Shown here: positions 1 through 16,281 of the stretch, one piece after another
How the letters are laid out: each line of letters opens with the position of its first letter
Numbering within the stretch: position 1 is the first letter of the stretch
From: Deltaproteobacteria bacterium
GTDB lineage: Bacteria > Myxococcota > Kuafuiibacteriia > Kuafuiibacteriales > Kuafuiibacteriaceae
Reading direction: 5' to 3'
NCBI GenBank assembly: GCA_040218735.1
Contig: JAVJQW010000022.1
Location: 64,001-128,000 of the forward strand
DNA: 64,000 bases
Notes under the pieces: model-generated
What the model was told of the DNA's origin: nothing
The model's database searches: none
What the model saw: only the letters and a program-made list of their open reading frames with translations
Position numbers and translations under genes: made by a program

Positions 1-1359
<1,359 letters not shown>

Positions 1360-1422
1360 TCACGCGCCGGACCCGGTGTCCATGTGGGGTAGCGACGCGC
1401 ACCGGTCGCGCTGGGACCGGGC

Positions 1423-2793
1423 TCAGCGGAAGCGGGCGGGGTCGATGCCGGCGCGTTTGAGCCACCGGTACAGCTGCGTTCGGTGCCAGCCGTTGTCGAT
1501 CGCGGCGGCCTTCACGTTGCCCTTGGCCTGCGCGAGCGCGGCCTCGAGCGCCGCGAAGGACGGAATCCCGTCCTCGCTCTCGGGGTCCGCGGGCGCGACG
1601 GCCGCGCTGGCCGGCGCCGTCTTGTCGAAGCGCTGCGCGAGCGGACCGCGCAGCTCCAGCGGGAGGTCGATCAGCTCGAACGGCCCTTCTCCGGCGAGCT
1701 GCTCGAGCCGCTTCGTGAGCTTGCGGAGCTCGCGCACGTTCATCGGCCAGTCGTGCAGGAGCAGCGCCTCGTAGAACTCGGGGGTGGCGTCGCGCACCGG
1801 ACGGTCCGGGAACTCCGTGCGCAGGAAGTGCTTGAACAGCGTCAGGACGTCGGCGCGGCGCTCGGCGAGCGACGGGATGCGGAGCACCCAGTCACACAGG
1901 CGCGCCAACAGGTCCTGCCGAAAGCCCGTGTCCTCCAGGTCGATGTGCGTCGCGGCCACCACGCGGACGTCGACCGAAACCGGCGCCCCGCCGCCGAGCG
2001 GCTGGATGGTCTTGTCCTCGAGGACGCGCAGAAGCTTCGCCTGGACCGGCGCCGGGAGGTCGCCGACCTCGTCGAGGAAGAGGGTCCCGCCCTCGGCGAG
2101 CCCGAAGTAGCCGGTGCGCTCGGACTCGGCGCCCGTGAAGGCCCCCTTCTTGTGGCCGAACAGCTCCGACTCCGCGATCTCCGCGGGGATGGCGGCGCAG
2201 TTCACCGGGACGAACGCGCCATCGCGCCCGCTCACCTCGTGGATGGCGTGCGCGGTGACCTCCTTGCCGGAGCCCGTGGGGCCGAGGAGCAAGACGGTGC
2301 CGTCCGTCGGCGCGACGGTGGCGATGGAGCGCTTGAGGAGCAGCGTCGCGGCCGAGCCGCCGATCACCCCGCCGACCCCCGACGGATCCGCGTTGGGCGC
2401 CGCCGGCAGGTGGTCTCGCGACGGTTCGCGGTCGACGACCATCAGCGTGTCACCGGCGGAGAGCACCACGCCGTCCAGGGGGCGGCGTCCGGTGACCGGG
2501 GCGCCGTCCAGGTAGGTGCCGTTGGTCGTGGCGAAGTCCTCGACGAGGTAGCCGGAGGCCCCCGCGCTGAGCGCGACGTGGCGGCGCGACATGCGCTGGT
2601 CCCGCACCCGCTCGCCGGCGTCCGAGCTGCGCCCGAACACCAGCTCGCGGCCGTCGAGCACGAATTCGGCCCCGTGGTAGTCCGGATCCGGGGAGTGGAC
2701 GATGCGGATCCTCAGCGCGCTCGTGTCCGCCGTGAGGGTGACGTCGCGACGGAGCGTCGTCATCGTCACGGGCGGGTCGAGATCTGCGCTCAC
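1423..2793 (-). CDS. FHA-domain sigma54-dependent activator (bEBP, Fis-type HTH)
   Basis: FHA (FGRS..MSRRH..TTNGT), Walker A GPTGSGKE, ESELFGHKKGAFTGA, LFLDEVGD, WPMNVRELR, C-terminal HTH. Confidence 0.95.
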   Translation of the reverse strand: MSADLDPPVTMTTLRRDVTLTADTSALRIRIVHSPDPDYHGAEFVLDGRELVFGRSSDAGERVRDQRMSRRHVALSAGASGYLVEDFATTNGTYLDGAPVTGRRPLDGVVLSAGDTLMVVDREPSRDHLPAAPNADPSGVGGVIGGSAATLLLKRSIATVAPTDGTVLLLGPTGSGKEVTAHAIHEVSGRDGAFVPVNCAAIPAEIAESELFGHKKGAFTGAESERTGYFGLAEGGTLFLDEVGDLPAPVQAKLLRVLEDKTIQPLGGGAPVSVDVRVVAATHIDLEDTGFRQDLLARLCDWVLRIPSLAERRADVLTLFKHFLRTEFPDRPVRDATPEFYEALLLHDWPMNVRELRKLTKRLEQLAGEGPFELIDLPLELRGPLAQRFDKTAPASAAVAPADPESEDGIPSFAALEAALAQAKGNVKAAAIDNGWHRTQLYRWLKRAGIDPARFR

Positions 2794-2818
2794 GGCTGCA
2801 CCTTAGCGCAATCTTTCG

Positions 2819-2856
2819 CGTGTCACGACACGCCGCGTGACACGGAGCTCGTGTCA
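2819..2856. promoter_or_regulatory. Putative enhancer (UAS): overlapping GTGTCA/TGACAC inverted repeats
   Basis: cgtgtcacg(2819-2827)-8 nt-cgtgacacg(2836-2844), plus tgacacg-gagct-cgtgtca (2838-2856), upstream of a sigma54 motif and next to a bEBP gene. Confidence 0.6.
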
Positions 2857-2896
2857 AACGGGCGGCTGGGGTCGGCCTGTGACCGCACGAAGGTCA

Positions 2897-2912
2897 TGGC
2901 ACGGCCCGTGCT
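2897..2912 (+). promoter_or_regulatory. sigma54 (-24/-12) promoter
   Basis: TGGCACGGCCCGTGCT: GG-N10-GC spacing, matches TGGCACG-N4-TTGCW, 12 nt before the GTG at 2925. Confidence 0.8.
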
Positions 2913-2924
2913 CTTACGAGACAC

Positions 2925-4166
2925 GTGGCCGACGCATCCTCCCCACGACCCTCGGAGTTCTTCGCCTACGCCGCGCAGCACGGCGCCGCGCAGCTGGTCG
3001 CCCATTCGACGGGCAACTCGAAGATCGAAATCGACGGGCAGACCCTCGCCGACTTCACCTCCAACAGCTACTTCGGCCTCGAGCGCGACCGCCGCCTCCA
3101 GGCCGCGGCCCACAGCGCGATGATGCGGTTCGGGGTCCAGTACGCTGCACCGCGTGCGCACGTCTCGCTCGATCTCTACCGCGAGCTCGAGGGGCTGCTG
3201 GACCAGATCTTCGTGGGCCCGACGATGCTTGCGGCGAGCACCACGCTCGCCCACCTCGCGACGCTCCCCACGTTGGTCTCGCCGCGGGATCTCGTGTTGA
3301 TGGAGACCAGCGTCCACCCGAGCGTCCGGCTCGCCGCCGAGAATCTCGTGGCGCGCGGCGTGCGCGTCCACGAGGTCACGCGCGGGGACTTCGAGACGCT
3401 CGACTCCGTGATGTGGCAACACGCGCCGACGTTCGAGCGGGTGTGGTACCTCGCCGACGGCGTCGACGCGACGTTCGGCGACGTGCTCGACATCCAGCGC
3501 CTCGAGAAGGTCCGCGACGAGCACCCGCAGCTGTATCTGTACATCGGCGATTCCCACGGCATGAGCATCCGTGGGCACCACGGCCGGGGCTTCGCGCTCG
3601 ACGGGCTCCGGTCGCGCGCCCGGACCATCGTGGTGAATTCGCTCTCCAAGTGTTTCGCGGCCGCGGGGGCGGCAGTGGTGTTCCCGAACGACGGGATGAA
3701 GCAGCGCGTGTTCGACGGGGGGGCGCCGATCATCTCGAGCGGACCCCTGCCGCCCCCGATGCTCGGGGCCGCGATCGCGTCCGCGCGCATCCACCTCGCG
3801 GACGAGATCATCGGCCGACAACGGCGCCTGGAGGCGCTGATCGTCACGCGCAACGATCTGCTCGCGCGACACGAGCTGCCCACGCCGGTCACGAGCACCT
3901 CGCCGATCGCGTTCGTGGAGTTGTCGTCCGAGCGGGAGGTCGTCGCGGTGGCGAACGCCCTGAGGACGCGTGGGTACTACGTCCACGCGACGCCGGTGAC
4001 GAACGGCCGCACTGGAATCCGCTTCACGACCACGGTCGACACGTCGGCGCGCACGTTGGAGGCGATGTTGGAGCTGCTCGCGCACGCCCGAAACCACCTG
4101 CACCGGACGCCGTCCGGGCGGCCGTCGTCGTCGAGCCCGCGCGACGTTCCTTGTCGCACCACGTGA
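2925..4166 (+). CDS. PLP-dependent alpha-oxoamine synthase-like protein (AONS/SPT/CqsA superfamily)
   Basis: FTSNSYFGLE, WYLADGV, GDSHGMS (DDAHG-like), NSLSKCF with the PLP lysine. Confidence 0.85.
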   Translation: MADASSPRPSEFFAYAAQHGAAQLVAHSTGNSKIEIDGQTLADFTSNSYFGLERDRRLQAAAHSAMMRFGVQYAAPRAHVSLDLYRELEGLLDQIFVGPTMLAASTTLAHLATLPTLVSPRDLVLMETSVHPSVRLAAENLVARGVRVHEVTRGDFETLDSVMWQHAPTFERVWYLADGVDATFGDVLDIQRLEKVRDEHPQLYLYIGDSHGMSIRGHHGRGFALDGLRSRARTIVVNSLSKCFAAAGAAVVFPNDGMKQRVFDGGAPIISSGPLPPPMLGAAIASARIHLADEIIGRQRRLEALIVTRNDLLARHELPTPVTSTSPIAFVELSSEREVVAVANALRTRGYYVHATPVTNGRTGIRFTTTVDTSARTLEAMLELLAHARNHLHRTPSGRPSSSSPRDVPCRTT

Positions 4167-4212
4167 GGCGCCGCCCGCTGTTTGGGCGGCCGTGACGTGC
4201 TATGCGACGAAC

Positions 4213-7200
4213 ATGAACACCCCCCGGGAGATCGCCCTCGCCGAGAAGCTCGCGTGCCTGCGCGCGGTGCCCGAGTTTCGTGGTCTCTCGGAGGAAGCGC
4301 TCACGCCCCTCGCGAAAGCGATGGAGATGCGCGTGTATCCGCCGCCGGGGGGGCCCGGTGTCCTCATGGGTCGGCTGCTGGGGTTGGTGGGTAACGGCGA
4401 CGAGCACTGGATCACGCACCCCAACCGTCCCGTCGCGGAGCGGTTGCTCTCGGTCGTCGTCGACGGACAGGTGCGCCTCGTCCAGACGCAGAACGGCGAG
4501 CCGTGGTCGCGCGCGCTCGGGCCGGGCACGCTGTTCAACGAAGAAGGCGTCGCGCACGCGCTCGGGATGCGCGGGCCCGAGGGTATGAAGATCGGCGCCG
4601 CCCCCGTCGGGCGCGCGTGGGTGTTGGAGCTGCCGAAGGCGAAGGTCGAGTCGGTGCTCGGTCGAGACCCGGAGCAGTCCGCCGTGTTGAGCGGCGTGCT
4701 CCGCGGCTTCGTGAGCGCGCAGTACGCGCCGCCGGTCGTGCAAGTCATGAAGCGCGACCCGAGCCTCGGGAACGCGCGGCTCGACGATCTCTACGCGCTC
4801 GCCGAAGGCGCCGAGGTCGTGCACCTCAAACGCGGCGCGCCGGTGCCCTACTTCGAGCCGGGCCAGGTGCCACAATACTTCTACGTGGTCGTCAGCGGGC
4901 GGCTCGTGTCGGCGCCGCGCGGTCTGCCGGACCCCGTCGCCGTGGGTACGCGCGTCGACACCGCGTTCCCGATCGGGTTGTCGCAGATGATTCGCCGGCA
5001 GGTGTTGAGCGAGCAGCTGTACGCCGCGGACGACGTGACCGTGATGGCGATCGGCGCCGACCGATTCCAGGAGCTGCTCTACACCAACACCGACTTCTTC
5101 CGCGCAATCCTCGAAGGCGCCGGCGTCGACCCGCTCCGCGGACAGCGCGACCAACAAACGGACGTCGACGTGGTGCTCGTCGCGGCGAGCCCGAAGCTCG
5201 AGACGCCGATCGGACCGGTCACGGATCTCCTCGGCGAGGCGATCGCTTCACACATGTACGATCGCACCTGCGTCCTGCACGTGCTCCCGCCGGGTGAAGG
5301 CCCGGTGCCCAACACCCAGCGCATCCTCGCGCCGCACCACGACTCCCGCTACCCGGGTGCCACCGCCGTCACCCATCACTACGCCCGCGCCGACGCCGAG
5401 GGGGTCGAGGCGGTGGACCGGGTGATCGAGGCGCTACGCGAGGAGCGCGCGCACGACCAGGACGTCGCGCACGACATCATCCTCGTGGACATCTCGCGCT
5501 TGGAGAGCGCGAGCACGACGCTCACGCGCTTCGCGGCGTTGAAGGCGCTGACGCGTATCTGCTTCGTCATCGACGACCCGGAGGACTACGTCCCCTTCTC
5601 GATGCTCCTGCGGAGCGTGGAGGTCGTGACGGTCGGTGTGCTGCCGGCGTTCCGCGACCAGCGCCCGATCGGCCTCGTGATGGAGGAGATGCACGACCAC
5701 TTTCAGGAGCAGTCCGTCCTGTCGCGTGTGAAGCAGGCATCGTCGACCGTGTTCGGGTACGGACGGACCCGCCTGCAGCGACGCGCCGAGTCCGCGCAGC
5801 GCTACGCGGAGCGGTTGATGCGGCCGTGGGAGTACGCGGACGGCTCACCGATCGCGATGCCGCCGTGGCCGCCGAGGACGACGCGCGTTCGTTTCGATCC
5901 GGAGCTCCTCGAAGCCGTTTATGCGCGCGTGAACGCGCCGGCCGACGCAGCGCCGCTGAAGCTCGGTGACTGGGAGGCTTCGCGCGACTCGATCAACCGG
6001 TGGGCGCGCGGCGTGACGGGGCGACGCGTGGGCATCGCGCTCGGCGGCGGCGGTGCGTTCGGTTACGTGCACGCCGCGTTGATCCGCCGGCTTCGCAGCG
6101 ACGACTACGACGTCCCGATCGACCTGGTGAGCGGGTCGAGCTTTGGGGCGGTGGTCGGCGCCTACTACGCGGGCGGCGACACGGACTTCGAGCGCCTGAT
6201 CGACCACTGGTACCTCATGACCGCGGCGGTCTCGGTCGGCATCGTCACGACGGCGTCGATGACCTTGGCGATCGACCTCGACGTCGGCGCCTACGACATG
6301 AACGAGATCGAGATCTCGTACTACCCGGTCGTCACCGACGCCGACACCGGGACGGAGTGGAGCCTGCGCCGCGGCACGCTCGGTCGTGGTGTGCGCGCGT
6401 CGGGCTCGCTGCCGCCGATGGCGCCGACGATCGAAGGTGTGCGCCGCCTCCTCGACGGTGGCCTCGTCGCCAACGTCCCCGTGCAGGTGCTGCACGACGA
6501 AGGCGCGGGGATGATCATCGCGTCGAACCCGATTCCGGACCCTGCGCCGCGCGAGCCGAAGGCGCCGTTGCCGATCCCGTTCCTCGGAGCGTTCCTGCGA
6601 TCGAGCGAGCCCATCGACCGCATCATGGACGGGTTCCGCTCCACGCTGATCCTCATGCGCGCGGCCGGCGCGAGCCAGGAGCGGTTCGCGGATCTCGTGT
6701 ACGCCGCCGAGACCCGCGGCACGACGATGTTCCGGTTCCAGGATCGCAAACAGATCATGGCGGAGGCGGAGCGTGATCCCGAGCGCCGGCTCGACCAGGC
6801 CGCAGAGCGCGCGTTGTTGCGCTGGCGTCGCTCGCTGCGACGTCCGCCGACCCGCGTGCAGGTGCTGGAGTCGGGCGAGATCCACGTGCCGGCCGGGCTG
6901 TGTTTCATGGAGCGCGCGGGGCGTGAAGTCTTCACGGAGACCGCCGCGGAGATCCTCGGCGAGGTCGCTGCCTTCCTTCGGGCCTCGCCGCAGATCCGGA
7001 AGGTCGGCGTGCACATCCCGATTCAATCCGCGCGCGGGGAGGAGGCCGTCGGTCCGCACCGACTCGCGGCGGGCGACACCGACGCCGACGAGCGCGCGAG
7101 CCGCGTCGTGGAGGAACTCACGCAGCGCGGCGTCGAGCCCGACCGCCTGCAGATCCTGAAACACGGCTCTGCGCGGTTCACGCGCGGACGCGAGGTGGAG

Positions 7201-9555
7201 CTCATCGCCCTGGAGGTCGCGACGGGGATCGCGGCGCAGCGGCTCGTGGACGCCGCCCAGGTGCAGGCGCGCGTCGAGCGACGACGACGCCTGACGTCGG
7301 ACGCCCGGGCGCAGCTCGAAGCCGGCAACGTGGGGCTCGCGCGACTCCTCGCGTTGGAGGCGGCGGCGCTCGGGATGGACCTGGAGGTCGACGGCGTGCT
7401 GCGCACGATCCTCGAACGGCCGCTCTCCCGGCGGTACGCGCTGCCGGCGCTCGAAGATTCGATTCACCGACTGCGCTGGTCGCCGGACGGCAACTACCTC
7501 GCGCGCGCGGGGTCGGGGGCGTTTTCGATCCACCCCCACGACACCCCCGACGACGCGATCCTCGTCCCCGCGAACGGCTACGGGACCGGCCTGTCCTGGA
7601 GCCCGGACCAGACCAAGCTCGCGCGCGGGAGCCACGACCGCACCGAGCGCATCTACGACGTCTCGCGCCTCCCTCAGGCGCCGCAACAGATCGCGATGCG
7701 TTCGACGAACACCTGGCGCGGCTGGGGCGTCGCGTTCCACCCCGAGGGCGATCGACTGCTCGGCACCGACCAAAACGGCGCTTCGATCTGGACCCTCCCC
7801 GGCACCCTCGACTCCGTCCGCCTCGAACACGAAGGTCCGATCAACTGGGCCGCGTGGGACGCGGACGGAAAGTGGGTCGTGACCACCGGGGAAGACGGGC
7901 GCATCGGCCTGTGGAACGCGGCGACCGGAGCACGGGTGCGCTGGTTACACGAAGGCGAAGCGAAGCCCGGCATCGCGGCCTTCAACCGGGATGGCGTGCT
8001 CGCTGCGGCGGACGGGAGGCACGTCCTGCTCTGGACCGACCCCGAGCAGGGCGACGCGAAGGTGCTGCACGGTCACCACCGATCGGTCGTGCACATCGCG
8101 TGGTCCACCTCCGGGCGACGCCTCGCGACCGCCTCGGACGATCTGTCCGTGCGCCTGTGGAACGCGGCGGGTGAGCTGCAGACCGTGGTGTGGGGCCACA
8201 GCACGCCGGCGCAGGTGCTCGCGTGGCACCCCGACCACGAGGTCCTCGCGAGCGGCGGACACGATGGGCGCACCAACCTCTGGGACGGCGAGACGGGGCG
8301 AAGTCTCCTGCGGATCGGAGGCAAGAGCGGCGTCACGTCCATCGACTGGCGACCGCAAGGTGACTTGCTCGCGACGGGCCGCGCCGACGGCACGACGCAG
8401 GTCTGGGATCCCGACTCGCGCGCCTCCGTCACGCGGCGTTACGCCGGTGAGCCGGCGTCGCGCGTCACGGTGTTCCCGTCGGATCCTTCTCGGGTCCTCA
8501 CGAGCACGCGCGACGGTCGCGTGGAGATCTGGTCGAGCATCAACGGACGGCCCGAGCAGGTCCTCCGCGAATCCGACGGACACGCGGTCGAAGCGGCGCT
8601 GCACCCGGACGCTTCGGCGGTGGCGTTCGGTCGTGAGCACCGCCTGACGATCGTCGACCTCACCACCGGTGAAGAGACCGTCGTCGACACGCCAAAGGGG
8701 GCGGTCGAGCGGATTCGCTGGTCGCCGGACGGCAAGTACGTCGCGTTCACCGGCGACGAACGCTGTCAGGTCGTGGACGTGCAGACCCGGACGGTCGCGT
8801 TCGTCTCGGACGACATCGGCGCGATCACCACGGTGGAGTGGTCACCGGACTCCACACGTTTGTTGATCGGTGCGTGGTTGGCGCGCGAGCCGGTGCACGT
8901 GTGGGCCTTCGCCGACGGACCGAGGCCGGTGCGCCTCCCGCTCGCGCACCGCGACGGCGTGTGGAAGGTGGCGTGGAGCACCGACGGCACCAAGATCGCG
9001 TCGGGCAGCAACGAGGACGGAACGCTGGCCGCGGCGCGCCTCGACGGGACGCAGATCGTCGGCGACATCGTGTACGCCACACACGCGAGCGCCGTGCTCG
9101 ACGTGAAGTGGTCTCCCACCGGCAACCTCGTCGCGACGGCCAGCGGCGATCGCAAGGTGCGCGTCCTCGACTTCGACTCGGGCCGTGCGGAGACGATCGG
9201 CGAGCACGACGAAGCGGTCTTCACGGTGCGGTGGAGCGACGACGGCCGACACCTCGTCTCGGGCGGCGGCGACGCCGTGGCGCGGATCTGGTCGGTCGCG
9301 GAGCGGACGCCGGTCGCGGTGATCCGCGGCCACGAGAACAGGGTCTTCGGCGTCGGTTACCTCGACCGGGACAAGAGCCTCCTCACCGCGAGCGACGACG
9401 GGACGATCCGCGTGCACCTCGCGTCGAGCGTCGACGTGCGCGACGCGGTCGCGGAGTCGGCGTCGCGACTCACGATGACACCTGAGGAGTGGGCGAAGTG
9501 GATGCCGAGCGGCGAGCCGCTGCGTCCGTCGTGGCCGCCGGGGTCCTCCTCGTGA
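4213..9555 (+). CDS. Multidomain cNMP-binding / patatin phospholipase / OmpA-like / WD40 protein
   Basis: Two cNMP-like domains; patatin motifs LGGGGAFG, GSSFG, LDGG; degenerate OmpA-C-like segment; long WD40 array (LATASDDLSVRLWN etc.). Alternative GTG start at 4192. Confidence 0.88.
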   Translation: MNTPREIALAEKLACLRAVPEFRGLSEEALTPLAKAMEMRVYPPPGGPGVLMGRLLGLVGNGDEHWITHPNRPVAERLLSVVVDGQVRLVQTQNGEPWSRALGPGTLFNEEGVAHALGMRGPEGMKIGAAPVGRAWVLELPKAKVESVLGRDPEQSAVLSGVLRGFVSAQYAPPVVQVMKRDPSLGNARLDDLYALAEGAEVVHLKRGAPVPYFEPGQVPQYFYVVVSGRLVSAPRGLPDPVAVGTRVDTAFPIGLSQMIRRQVLSEQLYAADDVTVMAIGADRFQELLYTNTDFFRAILEGAGVDPLRGQRDQQTDVDVVLVAASPKLETPIGPVTDLLGEAIASHMYDRTCVLHVLPPGEGPVPNTQRILAPHHDSRYPGATAVTHHYARADAEGVEAVDRVIEALREERAHDQDVAHDIILVDISRLESASTTLTRFAALKALTRICFVIDDPEDYVPFSMLLRSVEVVTVGVLPAFRDQRPIGLVMEEMHDHFQEQSVLSRVKQASSTVFGYGRTRLQRRAESAQRYAERLMRPWEYADGSPIAMPPWPPRTTRVRFDPELLEAVYARVNAPADAAPLKLGDWEASRDSINRWARGVTGRRVGIALGGGGAFGYVHAALIRRLRSDDYDVPIDLVSGSSFGAVVGAYYAGGDTDFERLIDHWYLMTAAVSVGIVTTASMTLAIDLDVGAYDMNEIEISYYPVVTDADTGTEWSLRRGTLGRGVRASGSLPPMAPTIEGVRRLLDGGLVANVPVQVLHDEGAGMIIASNPIPDPAPREPKAPLPIPFLGAFLRSSEPIDRIMDGFRSTLILMRAAGASQERFADLVYAAETRGTTMFRFQDRKQIMAEAERDPERRLDQAAERALLRWRRSLRRPPTRVQVLESGEIHVPAGLCFMERAGREVFTETAAEILGEVAAFLRASPQIRKVGVHIPIQSARGEEAVGPHRLAAGDTDADERASRVVEELTQRGVEPDRLQILKHGSARFTRGREVELIALEVATGIAAQRLVDAAQVQARVERRRRLTSDARAQLEAGNVGLARLLALEAAALGMDLEVDGVLRTILERPLSRRYALPALEDSIHRLRWSPDGNYLARAGSGAFSIHPHDTPDDAILVPANGYGTGLSWSPDQTKLARGSHDRTERIYDVSRLPQAPQQIAMRSTNTWRGWGVAFHPEGDRLLGTDQNGASIWTLPGTLDSVRLEHEGPINWAAWDADGKWVVTTGEDGRIGLWNAATGARVRWLHEGEAKPGIAAFNRDGVLAAADGRHVLLWTDPEQGDAKVLHGHHRSVVHIAWSTSGRRLATASDDLSVRLWNAAGELQTVVWGHSTPAQVLAWHPDHEVLASGGHDGRTNLWDGETGRSLLRIGGKSGVTSIDWRPQGDLLATGRADGTTQVWDPDSRASVTRRYAGEPASRVTVFPSDPSRVLTSTRDGRVEIWSSINGRPEQVLRESDGHAVEAALHPDASAVAFGREHRLTIVDLTTGEETVVDTPKGAVERIRWSPDGKYVAFTGDERCQVVDVQTRTVAFVSDDIGAITTVEWSPDSTRLLIGAWLAREPVHVWAFADGPRPVRLPLAHRDGVWKVAWSTDGTKIASGSNEDGTLAAARLDGTQIVGDIVYATHASAVLDVKWSPTGNLVATASGDRKVRVLDFDSGRAETIGEHDEAVFTVRWSDDGRHLVSGGGDAVARIWSVAERTPVAVIRGHENRVFGVGYLDRDKSLLTASDDGTIRVHLASSVDVRDAVAESASRLTMTPEEWAKWMPSGEPLRPSWPPGSSS

Positions 9556-10691
9556 AGACCGAAGCGTGGGCGATCCGAAGCGGCGACGGGCCCGGCGCGC
9601 TGGAGCGCATCGAGCTGACGCTGCGTCCCCCCGGACCGCACGAGGTCCTCGTCGAGCCGCTCTACGGATCGTGGGAAGCGAACATGTCGCACGCGATCGC
9701 GCGGCGCCCGGTCGACGTGTGCAAGATGCGAAACGAGCCGTTCGTCGTGCTCGGCAACTCCGGCGTCGGGCGCGTCGTCGCGTGTGGGCCCGGAGTGACG
9801 CTCGCGGAGGGCGACGTGTGCCTGTACGCCCTGCCCCACGAGTTCGACCCGTACGGCTACCCCGAGCGGTTGATGGGCTTCGACCGACCGCACGTGCACG
9901 GCCTCCTCGCGCGGCGCGGGCTGTGGCGCGCCGAAGACCTCCACCCGCTGCCGAAGGACACACGTCACTCGCTGCGACAGTGGGCGGCGTTCTCGGTGCG
10001 CTTCCTCTCCGCCTGGTCGAGCTGGAAGGTCGCGCACGGCGCGTGGCGGCTGCAGATGGACGAGTCCGATCAACGTGTCCCGTACGTCTTCGGCTGGGGC
10101 GGCGGGACGACGCTCGCGACGCTCCAGCTCGCTCGGCTGTTCGGCGCCGACGCCACGATGGTCGCGTCGAGCCCCGCGCGCCTCGAGCAGATCGAGTCGC
10201 TGGGCATCCACCCGCTGGATCGCCGCGACTACCTCGACCTCGTACACGACGAGACCCGGATGAAGGACCCCGCGTACGCGGCGCGTTACCGCGAAGCCGA
10301 GCGCCGCTTCCTGCGTGACGTCCGCGGACGCACGGAAGGCCGCGGTGCATCGATCTTCTTCGACTACATCGGGACGCCGGTGTTGCGCGCGACGCTCAAG
10401 GCGCTCGCGCGGCAGGGGGTGCTGGCGACCGCGGGTTGGCTCGAGGGGCGCGACACGAACCTCAACCGCGCGCGAGAGTGCGTGAGCCGGCACATCCACG
10501 TGCACACCCACGGCTATCGGCGGCAGGAGGTCGCGCCCGCGGTGGCGTTCGCGGAGGCGAACGACTGGGTGCCGACGATCCACGACGAAGAGCGCGTGTA
10601 CACCTTCGACGGGATCGACGAGCTCGCCGAGGACTTCGCGGCCGGGCGCGTGACGAGTTACTTCCCGGTGTTCGAGATCAACCCCGCGTGA
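9552..10691 (+). CDS. Medium-chain dehydrogenase/reductase (zinc-binding dehydrogenase family)
   Basis: PGPHEVLVEPLYGSWEAN, FVVLGNSGVGRVV, VFGWGGGT, GASIFFDYIG; GTGA overlap with the upstream stop. Confidence 0.85.
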   Translation: MKTEAWAIRSGDGPGALERIELTLRPPGPHEVLVEPLYGSWEANMSHAIARRPVDVCKMRNEPFVVLGNSGVGRVVACGPGVTLAEGDVCLYALPHEFDPYGYPERLMGFDRPHVHGLLARRGLWRAEDLHPLPKDTRHSLRQWAAFSVRFLSAWSSWKVAHGAWRLQMDESDQRVPYVFGWGGGTTLATLQLARLFGADATMVASSPARLEQIESLGIHPLDRRDYLDLVHDETRMKDPAYAARYREAERRFLRDVRGRTEGRGASIFFDYIGTPVLRATLKALARQGVLATAGWLEGRDTNLNRARECVSRHIHVHTHGYRRQEVAPAVAFAEANDWVPTIHDEERVYTFDGIDELAEDFAAGRVTSYFPVFEINPA

Positions 10692-11838
10692 GGACGATCT
10701 GATCGAGGACGAGGCCTTCACCGAACGGGAGGTCGTGTTCGATCGCGATCGAGGACCTCGGACGCTGCGGGGTGAAGTGAATCGCGTGGCCGCCGCGCTC
10801 GGTCACTTCGGTCGACGAAGTCACGATCACCGGGTCGCTCAGCAGCGCGATGCCTGAGGGTTCGAGCGTGAAGGTCATCCCGTCCGAAGTCATCGAGCGT
10901 ACGTAAAAGCTCAGCGTGTACGTCTCGCCGGGCTCTGCGTTCTCGAAGATGAGCGTCGGTTGGAAGTTGTCGACGACGTGCCCGAGCATCACGCCCATGC
11001 GCTCCGAGATGCCCTGGTCGGCGCCGGACCAGTGGACCTCGGTCGGCGTGGCGCCGGGGGCGCCCACGACGATCGGTGCGGTGTCGAGATCGAAGCGGAC
11101 GTCGAGGGGGACCGGCTCGCCCGAGCCGTAGATGCTGAAGGACTTCGTCTCGGCGATGCTCCGGGTCGAGTAGTAGGAGAGCATGCGGTCGCGGTAGGCC
11201 TCCTCGTCGGGCTGCTCGGCCTCCGTCTGGTAGAGATCGAACCCCGTCTGGAACGGCACCAACCCGGCGAGCGCGCGGCGCGGCTCGGCGCGCATCTCTT
11301 CGAAGTCCAACACGCGCCCCTCGGAGACGAAGATGCCGGCGTACGTGACGTCGAAGTAGTGCCAAGCGTCGTCGTAGCAGAACTGCACCGCAGTGTGGCC
11401 CGAGCCGGGCTCGATGAAGTTGTAGAGGCTGACCATCTCGGCCCGCAGGCCCGCGCGCTCCGCGAGCTGCTTCGTGACGACGGAGCGCTCTCCGCACAGG
11501 CCGTAGAACGGGATGGCGCGGAGGTGCTGTCCGTCGCCCTGGTCGGCCGCGACCTCGCGGTCGTTGACGGAGCTCAGCGCGACCCAGCGCGCGATCGTCT
11601 CCGCCTTCACGGCGTCGGGCATCTCGGGATCCAGCGCCGGTTCGAGCTGTGTCCAGAGCCAGGAGACGTCCCACTTCTCGGGGTCCGGCGTGTAGTTCGG
11701 CGTCGCGACCGGATCACACTTCGACGTTGGATCCGCGGGCGTCACGACGGGGTGACACGCCGCGATCCCGACCACGATGACGATGGCCGCGCGAGACACG
11801 ATGCCGTGTCTATTCGGTGAAGCGCGCGCTCGGCGCAA
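10678..11838 (-). CDS. Secreted/lipoprotein with transglutaminase-like Cys-His-Asp motifs
   Basis: Hydrophobic stretch ending GIAAC; GLCGERS...GHTAVQF...WHYFDVT. Start uncertain. Confidence 0.65.
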   Translation of the reverse strand: MRRARASPNRHGIVSRAAIVIVVGIAACHPVVTPADPTSKCDPVATPNYTPDPEKWDVSWLWTQLEPALDPEMPDAVKAETIARWVALSSVNDREVAADQGDGQHLRAIPFYGLCGERSVVTKQLAERAGLRAEMVSLYNFIEPGSGHTAVQFCYDDAWHYFDVTYAGIFVSEGRVLDFEEMRAEPRRALAGLVPFQTGFDLYQTEAEQPDEEAYRDRMLSYYSTRSIAETKSFSIYGSGEPVPLDVRFDLDTAPIVVGAPGATPTEVHWSGADQGISERMGVMLGHVVDNFQPTLIFENAEPGETYTLSFYVRSMTSDGMTFTLEPSGIALLSDPVIVTSSTEVTERGGHAIHFTPQRPRSSIAIEHDLPFGEGLVLDQIVLTRG

Positions 11839-11841
11839 AAA

Positions 11842-12987
11842 TCAGGCTGACGTGATCGCCCGCTCCAACGTCACGAGCAGCGACGCCGCGCTCTCTTCCC
11901 AGGTCGGCACCTGCGCGAGCTGCGTGATGCGCTCCGGTTCGACGGGCTCTGCGAGCTGCGCCGCGAGCGCGTCCGCGAGCGCCTCGGGGTTGCTCGGCGG
12001 CACGAGGCGGCCCAGCGCCGGGTGGTGTACGGCCTCGGGGATCCCACCCACGTGGGTCGCGACGACCGGGCGACCGCACGCGTGGGCCTCGCGGACGACG
12101 TTCGGCATGCCCTCATCCCAGCTCGGCAGCGTGAGGACGTCGCACGCCGCAAGGTAGGTTGCGATCTGCTCGTGCGGCTTGCGCCCCACTGCGCGGACGG
12201 TCGGGTTCGCCTGGAGGGTGTCGAGCATCGGGCCGTCGCCCACGTAGAGCACGGTCGCGTTCGGCGTGGTCCTCGAGAGGAGCTCGGCGGCGCGCAGCAG
12301 ATCCTCGGCGCCTTTGTGGTCGGCGAGGTGGCCGACGTAGAGGATCAGGCGGTCGACGTCGGTGAGGCCGAGCGTGCGGCGCGCGGCGTCGCGGTCGCGG
12401 ACGTGGAAACGCTCGCGGTCGATGCCGTTGTAGACCACGTCGATGCGTTCACGCGGCACGTTCAACAGCTGCGCCGCCTCCGCGAGCTTCTCACTCACGC
12501 AGACGACGCGCTCGGCGCGCGGGAGGAGCTGCTCCATCTGCAGGCGCGCGCTGAGGTGCTCGGGGACGCGGTTGAGATCACTCCCATGGCACTTCACGAC
12601 GACCGGGAGGCCCTGCGCCTTCGCCGCGACCAACGCACCGCACGCGTCGGGATACGCGTAGGCGCCGAGCACCAAGTCGTAGCGCTGCCCGCGCAGGCGC
12701 CGCGCCGCGAGGTGCGCGGTGACGGACGACGCCACCGACGCCGCGTTCAGCGCAACCGCGCCCGGCACGGTGAGGAAACGAGGGCGGAACACGTCGATGC
12801 CGTCGAAGACCTCGTGCCGCGAGAGGCCGCTTCGCAGCGGCGGGAAGATCTTCCTCGGGACGAGCGCGAAGATCTCGACGTCGGCGATCTCGGCGAGCGC
12901 GCGGAACTGCTGACGGTTGAACGGCGCGAAGTCCGGCCGCGCTTCGCTCGGGTAGAGGTTCGTGACGACGAGGACCGAGCGGCGCAC
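11842..12987 (-). CDS. Glycosyltransferase family 4 (TuaC-like)
   Basis: VLVVTNLYPS, KCHGSDLN, PSWDEGMPNVVREAHACGRPVVATHVGGIPE; start trimmed to GTG 12987. Confidence 0.92.
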   Translation of the reverse strand: MRRSVLVVTNLYPSEARPDFAPFNRQQFRALAEIADVEIFALVPRKIFPPLRSGLSRHEVFDGIDVFRPRFLTVPGAVALNAASVASSVTAHLAARRLRGQRYDLVLGAYAYPDACGALVAAKAQGLPVVVKCHGSDLNRVPEHLSARLQMEQLLPRAERVVCVSEKLAEAAQLLNVPRERIDVVYNGIDRERFHVRDRDAARRTLGLTDVDRLILYVGHLADHKGAEDLLRAAELLSRTTPNATVLYVGDGPMLDTLQANPTVRAVGRKPHEQIATYLAACDVLTLPSWDEGMPNVVREAHACGRPVVATHVGGIPEAVHHPALGRLVPPSNPEALADALAAQLAEPVEPERITQLAQVPTWEESAASLLVTLERAITSA

Positions 12988-12988
12988 G

Positions 12989-13522
12989 TCAGGCGGCCTT
13001 CGTTTCCTGCAGCGTGTCGAGCGCGCGCCGCACGCTCCGTTCGGCGCGGTCGAGGCAGGCGTGCACCTCGTCGACGTAGCCGTCCGCCGAGGCGGACCAC
13101 GCGCGGTTGAGCGCGCGTTCGCCGCTCGCGAAGGCGTCCATCGTGCGCGCGTAGACGTCGAGGCCGTGCACGGTGGCGATCGTCTCACGAACTTCGACGA
13201 AGCGGTTCACGTCGTGCATCACGTCCGCGTCGATGCGGCCGTGGATGCCGTAGACGCCGACACGCTCGCGCTCCGCGTTGAGGGCTTCGATCGCGGCGAG
13301 TGTCGCGGCCAAGCTCTCGTGGACGACCTGCAGCTCCGCCGCCGCGGCCTTGTGATCCGTCGTTCCGCCGCGCGCCGTGAGGCGTAGGAGCACGACGCCC
13401 GCGATCGCGATCGCAACGGTGATGCCGTACTGCCACCACGTCACGGTCGACAGCTCGCGCACCGTGACGAACGTACCCGCGGTGACGCCGAGAAAGAAGA
13501 GGACGAGCCCTGCGATACGCAT
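12989..13522 (-). CDS. Hypothetical membrane protein (2 N-terminal TM segments)
   Basis: Host-like codon usage, tightly packed between OPT and GT4. Confidence 0.75.
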   Translation of the reverse strand: MRIAGLVLFFLGVTAGTFVTVRELSTVTWWQYGITVAIAIAGVVLLRLTARGGTTDHKAAAAELQVVHESLAATLAAIEALNAERERVGVYGIHGRIDADVMHDVNRFVEVRETIATVHGLDVYARTMDAFASGERALNRAWSASADGYVDEVHACLDRAERSVRRALDTLQETKAA

Positions 13523-13525
13523 GGT

Positions 13526-15289: not shown

Positions 15290-15399
15290 CGGCGCCCTTA
15301 CAGCGCGCTCGGTCGGGGCGGTCAAGCGATCTGGTCCCGACTGGCGGCGTGAAGTTTGTCTTGGGGCCTTCGCGGCGCTTCCGCTAGCTTGGCGCCGCG

Positions 15400-16281
15400 A
15401 TGACGAGGACCGCCGAGCACGACAAGTTGGAGCGTCAGCTCGAGCGGCAGATCCGCCAGACGTCGAAGCGCTACGGCCTCCTCGCAGAGGGCGACAAGGT
15501 GCTCGTCGCGATCTCCGGCGGCAAGGACAGCTACACGATGCTGCGCATCCTCTCGCGCATCGCCACGCGGTTGCCGTTCGACGTGGAGCTGGTCGCGGTG
15601 CACCTCGACCAGCAGCAGCCGGGTTACGACGGGCGGCCGCTCGTCGAGTGGTTGGAGCAGCACGCAAACGTCGCGTACGAGATCCTCTCGGAGGACACGT
15701 ACTCGGTGGTGACGGACCACCTCGATGCGGCGTCGACGTACTGCTCGCTGTGCTCGCGCCTGCGCCGCGGCATCCTCTACACGGCGGCGGAGCGCCTCGG
15801 CTGCAACAAGATCGCGCTGGGCCATCACCGCGAGGACACGCTCGAGACGTTCATGATGAACCTCTTCTACGCGGGCAAGCTCCAGGCGATGCCGGCGAAG
15901 TACACGACCGACGACGGTCGCTTCGAGGTCATCCGCCCCATGATCGAGTGCAGCGAGGACAAGATTCGACGCTACGCCGAGCTGGAGGCGTTCCCGATCC
16001 TCCCCTGCAACCTGTGCGGCTCGCAGAGCGGCCTGAAGCGCGAGCTGATGGGGCAGATGCTGGAGCATATGGAGCAGACGAACCCGCACGTGCGCGCGGT
16101 GATGCTCAACGCGCTGACGAACGTGCGCCCGACGCACCTGCTCGACCAGGACGTGTTGGCGGCGTGGTCGGAGCGCGACGAAGCGATTCGGCCGGACGCG
16201 GAGGTCACGCCGCGCCGCGCCCACGCGGCCGCGGAGCCGGTGCTGAAACGGAACGCCCGGTTGCCGATCTTGGAGCACTGA
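15400..16281 (+). CDS. ttcA: tRNA 2-thiocytidine(32) synthetase
   Basis: PP-loop SGGKDS, LDQQQPG, CSLCSRLRRGILY, LGHHRED, PCNLCGSQ. Confidence 0.96.
   Translation: MTRTAEHDKLERQLERQIRQTSKRYGLLAEGDKVLVAISGGKDSYTMLRILSRIATRLPFDVELVAVHLDQQQPGYDGRPLVEWLEQHANVAYEILSEDTYSVVTDHLDAASTYCSLCSRLRRGILYTAAERLGCNKIALGHHREDTLETFMMNLFYAGKLQAMPAKYTTDDGRFEVIRPMIECSEDKIRRYAELEAFPILPCNLCGSQSGLKRELMGQMLEHMEQTNPHVRAVMLNALTNVRPTHLLDQDVLAAWSERDEAIRPDAEVTPRRAHAAAEPVLKRNARLPILEH

What the first reader, a model, noticed from the sequence alone, without database searches (positions are those of the whole stretch)
1423..10691. sigma54-controlled three-gene lipid-signal cassette: oxoamine synthase + cNMP-patatin-WD40 + reductase
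Seen: an FHA-bEBP is divergent from an operon that has a near-consensus -24/-12 promoter and palindromic UAS; the last two genes overlap (GTGA). Known: patatins release fatty acids; AONS/SPT/CqsA-type enzymes condense acyl-CoA with an amino acid or SAM; reductases convert the ketone product (CAI-1, sphingoid bases). Inference: a phospho-Thr- and cyclic-nucleotide-gated pathway that makes an aminolipid or hydroxyketone signal. No bio genes are adjacent. I do not know of this combination as a described system.
Basis: partly seen in the sequence, partly recalled or inferred. Interest (0 to 1): 0.7.

Follow-up and report, generated by a model that had tools for sequence, protein, structure and literature searches.

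The report
Sigma-54 operon: aminoketone synthase, giant lipase, reductase
A large myxobacterium-like genome carries a tightly packed three-gene operon (a PLP condensing enzyme, a 1787-residue patatin lipase with sensor and scaffold domains, and a reductase) under its own sigma-54 activator. The genes are real and probably make a lipid-derived small molecule, but the combination was found only in this species-level lineage.

Summary
At 1423-10691 there is an FHA-domain sigma-54 activator. It lies divergent from an operon with a near-consensus -24/-12 promoter and a perfect palindrome. The operon encodes an alpha-oxoamine synthase (AOS), a 1787-aa CAP-like/patatin/WD40 protein (BIG) and an MDR reductase. 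The BIG stop and MDR start overlap (GTGA).

- The AOS is not BioF. It is the worst-scoring of five paralogues on the bioF model. It is a divergent, catalytically intact member of a PRK07505-like family.
- That family sits beside histidine kinases elsewhere (41 of 80 loci). This fits a signal-synthase role for the family, but the window's own clade lies apart on a long branch.
- The reductase lacks the zinc-ADH signature. Its family lies in PKS/NRPS clusters, so it looks like an enoyl-type reductase rather than a ketoreductase.
- The "cNMP" domains have degenerate phosphate-binding motifs, so cyclic-nucleotide gating is unproven.
- The trio does not co-occur elsewhere: 0 of 80 AOS loci, 0 of 6 BIG loci, 0 of 32 MDR loci and 0 of 200 other Myxococcota genomes.
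- Only near-identical strains (about 99% and about 95% DNA identity) keep the arrangement.

Verdict: a real, lineage-specific sigma-54 operon, probably making an acyl-derived aminoketone-type metabolite. Pathway coupling is inferred from operon structure alone. The scan had already noted AOS-kinase pairs on other DNA.

The parts
1423..2793 (-). FHA-domain sigma-54 enhancer-binding protein (456 aa): FHA, AAA+ with GAFTGA, Fis-type HTH
   Evidence: Pfam FHA 35.6 bits, Sigma54_activat 185.9 bits, AAA_lid_14 and HTH_8. No NCBIfam equivalog reaches its cut-off. Motifs were read.
2819..2861 (.). Putative activator binding site: perfect inverted repeat CGTGTCACG-N8-CGTGACACG plus a third half-site
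   Evidence: Inverted repeats I1-I3. The exact palindrome is unique in the 11.6-Mb genome. Binding by the activator is inferred.
2897..2912 (+). Sigma-54 -24/-12 promoter TGGCACGGCCCGTGCT
   Evidence: Single match in the 64-kb window, 0.11 expected. rpoN is present in the genome. The -12 element ends 12 nt before the GTG at 2925, so a leaderless or very short leader is inferred.
2925..4166 (+). Divergent alpha-oxoamine synthase (413 aa), PRK07505-like, catalytic residues retained
   Evidence: NCBIfam NF005697 205 bits (cut-off 342), bioF 126 bits, CqsA-type 43.5 bits. The best PDB hit is Alb29 8xha, E 4e-28. H131, D209, H211, K242 and R366 are conserved.
4192..9555 (+). BIG: 1787-aa multidomain patatin-like lipase
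   Evidence: Pfam hits. There are 37 homologues of the same length and architecture.
4249..5136 (+). BIG aa 20-315: two CAP/cNMP-binding-like domains with degenerate phosphate-binding cassettes
   Evidence: Pfam cNMP_binding 32.6 bits at aa 221-297. Alignment of 20 homologues.
5167..5817 (+). BIG aa 326-542: MinD/NifH/Get3-like alpha/beta domain without a P-loop
   Evidence: AlphaFold model, pLDDT 78. Foldseek hits NifH, Get3 and MinD, E 6e-4 to 2e-3, TM 0.3-0.56. No Walker A is visible in the sequence.
6025..6534 (+). BIG aa 612-781: patatin domain with GSSFG serine and DGG aspartate; oxyanion motif GGGGAFG (Phe where Arg/Lys is usual)
   Evidence: Pfam Patatin 50.9 bits. Best PDB hit PlpD 5fqu. 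The motifs are nearly invariant in 20 homologues.
6877..7218 (+). BIG aa 896-1009: OmpA C-terminal-like domain
   Evidence: AlphaFold model. Foldseek hits YiaD, MotB and Pal, prob 1.00, TMt 0.48-0.61.
7456..9552 (+). BIG aa 1089-1787: about 700 aa of WD40 repeats (two propellers)
   Evidence: Pfam WD40 204.9 bits and many beta-propeller models.
9552..10691 (+). Zinc-less MDR-superfamily reductase (379 aa), start overlapping the BIG stop (GTGA)
   Evidence: ADH_zinc_N 44 bits. Crotonyl-CoA reductase model 49 bits, cut-off 378. More than 1139 homologues, typically 46-55% identical and 377-390 aa long. Overlap read.

Best explanation
This is a lineage-specific operon transcribed from a sigma-54 promoter. 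It is probably switched on by the divergently encoded FHA-domain activator, which would bind the unique palindrome about 65 nt upstream of the -24 element.

The operon co-expresses three enzymes of acyl and lipid small-molecule chemistry.
1. A catalytically intact but divergent PRK07505-type alpha-oxoamine synthase. It would condense an acyl thioester with an amino acid to give an alpha-aminoketone.
2. A zinc-less MDR reductase of a family that elsewhere lies in PKS/NRPS clusters. Most likely it reduces a conjugated C=C bond, or less likely the ketone, using NAD(P)H.
3. A 1787-aa NTE-like patatin lipase flanked by CAP-like, pseudo-MinD, OmpA-like and WD40 domains. It could supply or remodel acyl chains and tie the chemistry to a ligand or a protein partner.

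The most likely output is an acyl-derived aminoketone or amino-alcohol-type metabolite, either a signal or a specialised lipid.

Shown: gene identities, conserved catalytic residues, promoter and palindrome, operon packing, and collinearity in related strains.
Inferred: activator-promoter pairing, co-transcription, enzyme order, substrates and product.
For: - Promoter and palindrome are statistically unusual, correctly placed and correctly oriented.
- The activator has GAFTGA and intact FHA phosphothreonine-binding residues (GR, SRRH, NGT; residue roles recalled). rpoN is present.
- Gene spacing is 25 nt and then a 4-nt overlap. No internal sigma-70-like promoter was found, and terminator-like sites are no more frequent than chance.
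- AOS catalytic residues are conserved. Its nearest solved relative is Alb29, an acyl-CoA plus L-glutamate AOS of a natural-product pathway (passages of PMC11906848).
- The AOS family is kinase-linked. HATPase_c lies within 2.7 kb in 41 of 80 loci, at 0.111 per kb near against 0.0146 per kb further out, and 37 of 42 hits are on the same strand.
- MDR homologues lie between PKS modules that lack ER domains, or beside acyl-CoA dehydrogenase, AMP-ligase and C-PCP genes, in 5 of 7 Myxococcota loci. That represents about 2 independent contexts.
- The patatin Ser-Asp dyad is conserved in 20 homologues.
- One 17.3-kb contig (120 differences) and one 32.5-kb contig (653 differences over 12.6 kb) from other runs are collinear across the activator, AOS, BIG, MDR and beyond.
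Against: - No comparative support for functional coupling was found. The counts are 0 of 80 AOS loci with BIG or MDR neighbours, 0 of 6 BIG loci with AOS or MDR, and 0 of 32 MDR loci with AOS or the BIG N-terminal part.
- Among 200 other Myxococcota genomes, 4 have the AOS family, 12 the MDR family and 6 a full-length BIG. No genome has two of them.
- A same-genus genome (75% complete) has none of the three with these queries.
- No acyl-CoA ligase or ACP is in the operon.
- The window AOS sits on a long branch apart from the kinase-linked clades (quick tree). Its 47% relative P0003 has Gln at the PLP-lysine position.
- No histidine kinase domain was found in the 64-kb window with my small HMMs.
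- No expression data are available.
Confidence: 0.4

Rival explanations
1. Operon by accretion. The three genes are co-transcribed from the sigma-54 promoter but serve separate functions: a stand-alone aminoketone synthase, an autonomous regulated lipase and a general reductase. There is no shared pathway.
For: Each family occurs without the other two everywhere else that was sampled. BIG-family neighbours are variable: HEAT/WD40 proteins, Ser/Thr kinases, transporters. MDR-family contexts are PKS/NRPS clusters. AOS-family contexts are kinases.
Against: Tight packing with a start/stop overlap, and a dedicated regulator whose palindrome is unique in the genome. All three enzymes plausibly act on acyl or lipid substrates. 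The arrangement is retained at about 95% DNA identity, although that is a short evolutionary distance.
Confidence: 0.3
2. The patatin domain frees fatty acids when cAMP or cGMP binds. The AOS condenses the activated acyl chain with an amino acid or SAM. The reductase converts the ketone, giving a CAI-1- or sphingoid-like signal. Phosphothreonine input arrives through the FHA activator.
For: The domain kinds are as described. The FHA residues are intact. The AOS family is kinase-linked elsewhere.
Against: The phosphate-binding cassettes are degenerate. The MDR is zinc-less and of the ER/QOR type with PKS/NRPS contexts. No acyl-activating enzyme is present. The CqsA-type model scores 43.5 bits against a cut-off of 428. 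The trio does not co-occur elsewhere.
Confidence: 0.15
3. Membrane-lipid pathway. The AOS acts like a serine palmitoyltransferase and the operon makes or remodels a sphingoid or aminolipid membrane component under stress control.
For: AOS fold, with SPT structures among the PDB hits at E about 2e-15. The lipase is in the same operon. A glycosyltransferase lies downstream on the other strand.
Against: The SPT equivalog models score 40-69 bits against cut-offs of 500-670. No ceramide synthase-like or SDR-type reductase gene is in the operon. The AOS family is rare in the phylum, in 4 of 200 other genomes.
Confidence: 0.1
4. Biotin synthesis (BioF), or an anti-phage module with a nucleotide-activated patatin effector.
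For: The annotation-level name '7-keto-8-aminopelargonate synthetase-like' appears on homologues. cNMP-like plus patatin recalls nucleotide-activated lipase effectors (recalled).
Against: On the bioF HMM the window gene scores 126 bits, while three paralogues score 338-371. No bio genes are nearby. PADLOC gives no hit for AOS, BIG or MDR; only generic RtcR-type AAA+ hits appear for the activator. No cyclase or nucleotidyltransferase was seen among the neighbouring genes scanned.
Confidence: 0.03

Closest known systems
Alb29 (Streptomyces albogriseolus albogrisin pathway alpha-oxoamine synthase; PDB 8xha, 8i7u)
   Same: It is the best solved-structure match, E 4e-28 over residues 19-375. It has the same AOS fold and catalytic residues, and it is a stand-alone enzyme of specialised metabolism that uses acyl-CoA plus an amino acid (L-glutamate; passages of PMC11906848).
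   Different: The match scores only about 100 bits. The substrate-loop sequence differs: AAPR in the window clade against SSSR in the family consensus. The gene context is unrelated. The amino-acid substrate here is unknown.
CqsA/CqsS (Vibrio) and LqsA/LqsS (Legionella) alpha-hydroxyketone signalling
   Same: An AOS-family enzyme is encoded next to a dedicated regulator. The wider PRK07505-like family sits beside a histidine kinase in 41 of 80 loci, the same make-and-sense layout.
   Different: The window enzyme scores 43.5 bits on the CqsA-type model, cut-off 428. Its neighbour is a cytoplasmic FHA-bEBP, not a membrane kinase. No HATPase_c domain was found in the window. The window clade lies apart from the kinase-linked clades.
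NTE/PNPLA6-type and bacterial 'cyclic nucleotide-binding and patatin' proteins; PlpD
   Same: CAP/cNMP-like domains lie N-terminal to a patatin domain with a Ser-Asp dyad. The patatin domain is closest to PlpD 5fqu.
   Different: BIG has extra domains: a P-loop-less MinD-like domain, an OmpA-like domain and about 700 aa of WD40. The oxyanion Arg/Lys is replaced by Phe across the family. The phosphate-binding cassette is degenerate. The NTE architecture itself is recalled, not tested here.
Trans-acting enoyl reductases, crotonyl-CoA reductase and quinone-oxidoreductase-type MDRs
   Same: It is a zinc-less MDR with a Rossmann motif. There are weak hits to the CCR model and to CCR and PpsC-ER structures. 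Homologues lie between PKS modules that have DH and KR but no ER.
   Different: It scores far below every curated cut-off, for example 49 against 378 bits for CCR. It forms its own well-conserved family, typically 46-55% identical across phyla with more than 1139 members, and no characterised member turned up in the libraries or papers I searched.
Myxobacterial FHA-domain sigma-54 activators (NtrC-like activators)
   Same: FHA plus AAA+ (GAFTGA) plus HTH architecture, divergent from a -24/-12 promoter with an upstream palindrome.
   Different: No equivalog model is reached. The cognate Ser/Thr kinase and the signal are unknown. The abundance of such activators in myxobacteria is recalled.

Membership tests
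Alpha-oxoamine synthase (fold-type I PLP, CoA-dependent acyltransferase) | Aminotransferase class I/II fold with best similarity to AONS, KBL, SPT or ALAS enzymes | tested here: met
   Pfam PF00155 42 bits. NCBIfam and PDB hits are all AOS enzymes.
Alpha-oxoamine synthase (fold-type I PLP, CoA-dependent acyltransferase) | PLP-binding lysine plus the His / Asp-x-x-His / Arg catalytic set | tested here: met
   K242 (SLSKCF), H131, D209, H211 and R366 lie in invariant or nearly invariant columns of a 24-sequence alignment. The residue roles are recalled or taken from PMC11906848 (Arg366 of ThAOS).
BioF (8-amino-7-oxononanoate synthase equivalog) | Score above the TIGR00858 cut-off; best bioF-like gene of the genome; bio gene context | tested here: not met
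   125.8 bits against 426.45. It ranks fifth of five paralogues, and the others score 371, 346, 338 and 176. No bio genes lie in 1-15.7 kb.
PRK07505 subfamily (NF005697) | Score above the curated cut-off | tested here: not met
   It is the best-scoring model but reaches 205 bits against 342. The gene groups with this family against other paralogues with SH-aLRT 100 (quick tree).
CqsA/LqsA autoinducer synthase | Score above the NF005526 cut-off and an adjacent cognate sensor kinase | tested here: not met
   43.5 bits against 428. No HATPase_c or receiver domain was found in the 64-kb window with HMMs built here.
Serine palmitoyltransferase | Score above the SPT equivalog cut-offs | tested here: not met
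   40-69 bits against 500-670.
Sigma-54-dependent promoter with bEBP | -24 GG and -12 GC elements with correct spacing, oriented toward the gene | tested here: met
   TGGCACGGCCCGTGCT at 2897-2912, unique in the window, 0.11 expected.
Sigma-54-dependent promoter with bEBP | Activator with an AAA+ GAFTGA loop; rpoN in the genome; upstream activator site | tested here: met
   GAFTGA and Walker A/B. Sigma54_DBD at 223.9 bits in contig C9. Perfect 9-nt inverted repeat, unique in the genome.
Sigma-54-dependent promoter with bEBP | Transcription start and dependence on the activator | not testable with these tools
   No RNA run is listed for this DNA.
Patatin-like phospholipase | GxSxG nucleophile and DG[AG] aspartate dyad | tested here: met
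   GSSFG and LDGGL, nearly invariant in 20 homologues.
Patatin-like phospholipase | Oxyanion-hole motif G-G-x-[RK]-G | tested here: not met
   GGGGAFG, with Phe at the Arg/Lys position, is conserved across the family. The canonical motif is recalled.
Cyclic-nucleotide-binding (CAP/CRP effector) domain | Pfam PF00027 match | tested here: met
   32.6 bits against a cut-off of 27.5, with no single stretch passing on its own.
Cyclic-nucleotide-binding (CAP/CRP effector) domain | Phosphate-binding cassette FGE...R[ST]A | tested here: inconclusive
   Domain 1 has FNEEGV...GRAW (close homologues have FGEQGV...GRAW or GRTV). Domain 2 has no Arg at the expected place. The cassette consensus is recalled.
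Zinc-dependent alcohol dehydrogenase (MDR) | Cofactor-binding domain PF00107 | tested here: met
   44.1 bits against 31.8.
Zinc-dependent alcohol dehydrogenase (MDR) | Catalytic zinc ligands (Cys...GHE...Cys) and the ADH_N GroES-like Pfam match | tested here: not met
   There is no PF08240 hit. GNSGVG replaces GHE and there is no Cys in the N-terminal ligand region. The ligand pattern is recalled.
Crotonyl-CoA carboxylase/reductase | Score above the TIGR01751 cut-off | tested here: not met
   49.2 bits against 378.55.
Known anti-phage defence systems (PADLOC) | Any PADLOC model hit on AOS, BIG (aa 1-1080) or MDR | tested here: not met
   0 families for these three. Only generic RtcR-type AAA+ hits appear for the activator.

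The most novel reading that the evidence does not exclude
The operon would be a self-contained, previously undescribed myxobacterial 'make-a-lipid-signal' unit. A giant sensor-lipase, carrying CAP-like ligand sensors and WD40/OmpA-like docking domains, releases or hands over acyl chains. A new clade of alpha-oxoamine synthase condenses them with an amino acid. An ER-type MDR finishes the product. The whole unit would be switched on through Ser/Thr-kinase phosphothreonine signalling to an FHA sigma-54 activator. This would be a eukaryote-like kinase-to-lipid-mediator cascade in a bacterium.
Probability: 0.15. Interest if true: 0.75.

Novelty: new variant of a known kind. Interest (0 to 1): 0.4.

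Why it matters
If the three enzymes work together, the locus would define a new route to an aminoketone or amino-alcohol lipid mediator in a large-genome, marine-associated Myxococcota lineage. It would also give a tractable handle on three poorly understood families, using one promoter, one activator and one palindrome:
- PRK07505-like alpha-oxoamine synthases;
- the conserved 380-aa zinc-less MDRs that sit in PKS/NRPS clusters;
- the 1800-aa CAP-like/patatin/OmpA-like/WD40 proteins of myxobacteria.

As it stands it is a single-lineage gene arrangement without comparative or expression support. Its value is as a candidate for heterologous expression rather than as an established system.

Tried and rejected
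- Synteny through AOS homologues. 80 loci from genome contigs with up to 10-kb flanks were searched by tblastn with BIG (three parts), MDR, orfX and GT4. There were 0 hits, and generic bEBP hits in 3.
- Synteny through BIG. Six loci had no AOS or MDR.
- Synteny through MDR. 21 genome loci and 11 metagenome loci had no AOS, BIG N-terminal or patatin hit. A generic WD40 hit appeared in 3 related short contigs.
- The metagenome scan with the MDR returned only 42-51% relatives on short contigs. It did not return the 59-62% relatives seen.
- Contigs of the closest homologues could not be fetched. Comparing 'longest contig' lengths between searches gave no shared contig.
- No BIG homologue at about 80% identity appeared. 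That search only saw proteins of 982 aa or more, so a gene split at a contig end would be missed.
- Expression: no RNA holder is listed.
- Defence reading: PADLOC was negative.
- BioF reading: rejected.
- NLR/STAND reading of patatin plus WD40: no Walker A is visible anywhere between them, and the inter-domain fold is OmpA-like.
- Hope that the unknown BIG domain (aa 301-610) was an acyl-activating domain: it is MinD/NifH/Get3-like without a P-loop.
- Literature searches for a description of AOS-kinase pairing, BioF2 function or cNMP-patatin-WD40 proteins in myxobacteria found nothing pertinent beyond the Cqs/Lqs literature and a review calling Mtb BioF2 uncharacterised (PMC12910592 passages).
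- The careful tree search did not finish in 300 s. Only the quick tree is reported.
- The Atlas search gave only generic names for the MDR.


Full report
**What is there**

The window is about 70% G+C. A third-position GC test picks one clear gene per stretch:
- a KatG-like peroxidase, 1-1344(-);
- an FHA/sigma-54 activator, 1423-2793(-);
- an aminotransferase-fold enzyme, 2925-4166(+);
- a 1787-aa protein, 4192-9555(+), called BIG here;
- an MDR-type dehydrogenase, 9552-10691(+) (alternative starts at 9489 and 9498);
- on the other strand, an unknown 386-aa ORF, a GT4 glycosyltransferase and an OPT transporter.

The genome is 11.6 Mb in 70 contigs. Named homologues of its proteins come from Polyangia, Nannocystaceae and Myxococcaceae. 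I therefore treat it as Myxococcota by inference.

**Regulatory part**

The activator has FHA, AAA+ (Sigma54_activat, 186 bits), lid and Fis-type HTH domains. Its sequence shows GAFTGA, Walker A and B, and the FHA GR / SRRH / NGT residues (residue roles recalled).

In the 131-nt divergent intergenic region, TGGCACGGCCCGTGCT (2897-2912) faces the operon. It differs from the recalled consensus TGGCAC-N5-TTGCW at one base. It is the only match to TGGCACN5KTGCW in 64 kb on both strands, against 0.11 expected.

Upstream lies a perfect 9-nt inverted repeat, CGTGTCACG-N8-CGTGACACG, with a third half-site. The exact 22-nt palindrome occurs once in the whole genome, and two other places differ by one mismatch. 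rpoN is present.

No sigma-70-like promoter was found in 1300-12000, and terminator-like sites are no more frequent than chance. The -12 element ends 12 nt before the only possible start codon, GTG 2925. The next in-frame start would remove invariant residues. A leaderless or nearly leaderless mRNA is therefore inferred.

The gene junctions are 25 nt (AOS to BIG) and a GTGA start/stop overlap (BIG to MDR).

**The PLP enzyme**

It is an alpha-oxoamine synthase by fold and by every hit. Scores on the NCBIfam models:

| Model | Bits | Cut-off |
|---|---|---|
| NF005697 (PRK07505, 'hypothetical protein') | 205 | 342 |
| bioF | 126 | 426 |
| KBL and SPT | about 50-70 | 460 and above |
| CqsA-type | 43.5 | 428 |

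Within its own genome it is the weakest of five bioF-model matches; the others score 371, 346, 338 and 176 bits. It is therefore not a plain BioF.

Its best solved relatives are four entries at E about 4e-28 to 6e-28. One of them, 8xha, is Alb29, the L-glutamate plus acyl-CoA AOS of albogrisin biosynthesis (passages of PMC11906848).

H131, D209, H211, K242 and R366 sit in invariant or nearly invariant columns. The window clade has AAPR where the family has SSSR in the substrate loop. Its 47% relative P0003 has Gln in place of the PLP lysine.

Close relatives are few: 96%, 81% and 47% identity, then 44% or less. None of 40 related genomes has anything closer than 39%.

**A family-level lead**

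The genome-contig scan found 470 relatives. I examined the 80 best loci.
- A Pfam scan of the flanking genes in 17 of them showed histidine kinases, response regulators or LuxR-type regulators next to the AOS in 11. It showed a C-terminal GNAT/FemAB-like fusion (about 810 aa) in 5, plus two further proteins of 819 and 829 aa without a Pfam hit for the extra part.
- With a HATPase_c HMM built from seven of those kinases, 41 of 80 loci have a kinase domain within 2.7 kb. The density is 0.111 per kb near the gene against 0.0146 per kb in the outer flanks, and 37 of 42 hits are on the same strand.
- The loci come from Actinomycetota, Bacteroidota, Myxococcota and Cyanobacteriota, but many are close kin, so they are not independent.

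This is the CqsA/CqsS-type layout built from a different AOS family. Earlier notes of this scan report the same pairing on other DNA. I did not find it in print.

In a quick ML tree (the careful search did not finish), the window enzyme forms its own clade with P0001, P0002 and P0003. That clade has weak support (SH-aLRT 81) and sits on a long branch inside the family, outside the kinase-linked clades. No kinase or receiver domain was detected in the 64-kb window or beside the paralogues in this genome and two relatives. The lead therefore supports 'signal synthase' for the family. It supports it only weakly for this gene.

**The giant protein (BIG)**

- Pfam gives a weak cNMP_binding hit (aa 221-297), Patatin (aa 616-767) and about 700 aa of WD40.
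- 37 other proteins of 987-2035 aa match. Most share the length and architecture, and those with names come from Byssovorax, Corallococcus, Pyxidicoccus and Hyalangium, annotated as 'patatin-like phospholipase family protein'.
- The patatin serine (GSSFG) and aspartate (DGG) are nearly invariant in 20 homologues. The oxyanion motif is GGGGAFG throughout, with Phe where Arg or Lys is usual (canonical motif recalled).
- The two CAP-like domains have poor phosphate-binding cassettes, so cyclic-nucleotide binding is open.
- AlphaFold models built with the 20-sequence alignments show two further domains. Residues 301-610 resemble the MinD/NifH/Get3 fold without a P-loop (pLDDT 78; Foldseek E 6e-4 to 2e-3). 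Residues around 896-1009 form an OmpA C-terminal-like domain (Foldseek prob 1.00 to YiaD, MotB and Pal).
- There is no NTPase motif between patatin and WD40, so it is not an NLR-type protein.
- PADLOC finds nothing.

**The reductase**

Only ADH_zinc_N is found, with no ADH_N. GNSGVG stands where zinc ADHs have GHE (motif recalled). There are weak hits to crotonyl-CoA reductase and to a PpsC ER-domain structure.

The family is large and well conserved: more than 1139 hits, typically 46-55% identical and 377-390 aa long.

I annotated seven Myxococcota loci. In two related loci, one scanned with Pfam, the gene lies between PKS modules that have DH and KR but no ER. In three related loci, two scanned with Pfam, it follows acyl-CoA dehydrogenase, AMP-ligase and C-PCP genes, and in one of the scanned loci it precedes an NRPS-PKS. 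One is near KAS III and an AMP-ligase. One is near a hexapeptide transferase, a TetR regulator and a hydrolase. An enoyl-type (C=C) reductase acting on acyl thioesters or enones is therefore more likely than a ketoreductase. This is inference.

**Do the three travel together?**

No, beyond the species level.
- 0 of 80 AOS loci have BIG or MDR within up to 10 kb.
- 0 of 6 BIG loci have AOS or MDR.
- 0 of 32 MDR loci have AOS or the BIG N-terminal or patatin parts. Three related short contigs have a generic WD40 gene convergent to the MDR.
- In the same sample of 200 other genomes of the phylum, 4 have the AOS family, 12 the MDR family and 6 a BIG homologue reaching into the N-terminal part. No genome has two of the three.
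- The same-genus genome is only 75% complete and shows none of the three with these queries.

What is conserved is the arrangement within the lineage. A 17.3-kb contig from one run covers 575-14300 with 120 differences. A 32.5-kb contig from another covers 1732-14300 with 653 differences, about 95% identity. Both are collinear. The locus is therefore not an assembly artefact, but this is a short evolutionary distance.

The contigs of the 81%/47% AOS and 78%/62% MDR homologues could not be fetched (look-up of encoding contigs closed). That is the main gap.

**Reading**

The best-supported statement is that a dedicated FHA sigma-54 activator drives a lineage-specific operon. The operon co-expresses an active AOS of a signalling-associated family, an ER-type MDR of a PKS/NRPS-associated family, and a regulated, scaffold-rich patatin lipase. 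A joint pathway to an acyl-derived aminoketone-type metabolite is plausible, because all three handle acyl or lipid substrates and the genes are tightly packed. It rests on operon structure alone (confidence 0.4).

The main rival is an operon assembled from functionally separate genes (0.3). SPT-like lipid synthesis (0.1), and BioF or defence roles (0.03), are unlikely.

**Novelty and interest**

Each component belongs to a recognisable superfamily. The combination and its regulation were not found in the libraries or in the literature searches made here. It is also not a recurrent system. I rate it a new variant of a known kind: AOS-based small-molecule synthesis under a dedicated regulator. 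Interest is moderate (0.4), mainly as a compact candidate for expression and metabolomics.

Noticed in passing
L009-L088 (80 genome-contig loci around AOS homologues): PRK07505-like alpha-oxoamine synthases sit next to histidine kinases. HATPase_c lies within 2.7 kb in 41 of 80 loci, about 7.6-fold denser than in the outer flanks, and 37 of 42 hits are on the same strand. Response regulators or LuxR-type regulators appear in others. This is the CqsA/CqsS-like layout with an unrelated AOS clade. Earlier notes of this scan report the same pairing on other DNA.
   Followed up: partly
L015:9965-12388, L018:9821-12274, L033:9950-12382, L041:9944-12370, L074:9899-12331 (also L049, L011): Many family members are fusions of about 810 aa: AOS followed by a C-terminal GNAT/FemAB-like domain (Pfam Acetyltransf_6, FemAB_like). 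The window enzyme lacks this domain. Its own-genome paralogue on contig C9 lies in an 880-aa open frame and may be such a fusion.
   Followed up: partly
P0003 (47% identical AOS homologue), alignment column of window K242: The closest non-trivial relative of the window AOS has Gln in place of the PLP-binding lysine (SLSQCF). Part of this small clade may therefore be catalytically dead.
   Followed up: no
L142, L143, L144, L145, L146 (Myxococcota genomes): The conserved zinc-less MDR family of about 385 aa lies in two kinds of context: between PKS modules that have DH and KR but no ER, or after acyl-CoA dehydrogenase, AMP-ligase, ACP and C-PCP genes beside an NRPS-PKS. It is a candidate trans-acting reductase family without a characterised member that I could find.
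   Followed up: partly
L120:4441-8175(-), L124:4341-8156(+): In two related genomes the BIG homologue is next to a 1250-aa Ser/Thr protein kinase with AAA_16 and TPR domains. This could relate to the phosphothreonine-reading FHA activator seen in the window, but the two loci are orthologous and count as one observation.
   Followed up: no
window 6877-7218 and 5167-5817: An apparently cytoplasmic protein (no signal peptide obvious at its N-terminus) contains an OmpA C-terminal-like fold, which is usually periplasmic and peptidoglycan-binding. It also contains a MinD/NifH/Get3-like domain that has lost its P-loop.
   Followed up: partly
window 10678-11838(-): A 386-aa ORF with strong GC3 bias but no Pfam, NCBIfam or PADLOC hit converges on the MDR gene and overlaps its 3' end by 14 nt. 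It is followed by a GT4 glycosyltransferase (11842-13188) and an OPT transporter (13526-15667).
   Followed up: no
L151:2760-3578, L152:2780-3598, L153:8132-9013: In three related metagenome contigs a WD40-repeat gene converges on the MDR homologue and runs off the contig end. Whether it carries a patatin domain cannot be seen.
   Followed up: no
window 1423-10691 in runs X1-X20: Near-identical DNA is held by runs labelled sponge, aquaculture, biofloc and biofilm metagenomes from 8 studies. Only X2, X3, X8 and X15 were laid. X2 and X15 have long collinear contigs, while X3 and X8 have only short pieces.
   Followed up: partly
window 2912-2925: The sigma-54 -12 element ends 12 nt before the only usable start codon of the AOS gene. 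This implies a leaderless or nearly leaderless transcript without a Shine-Dalgarno sequence.
   Followed up: no
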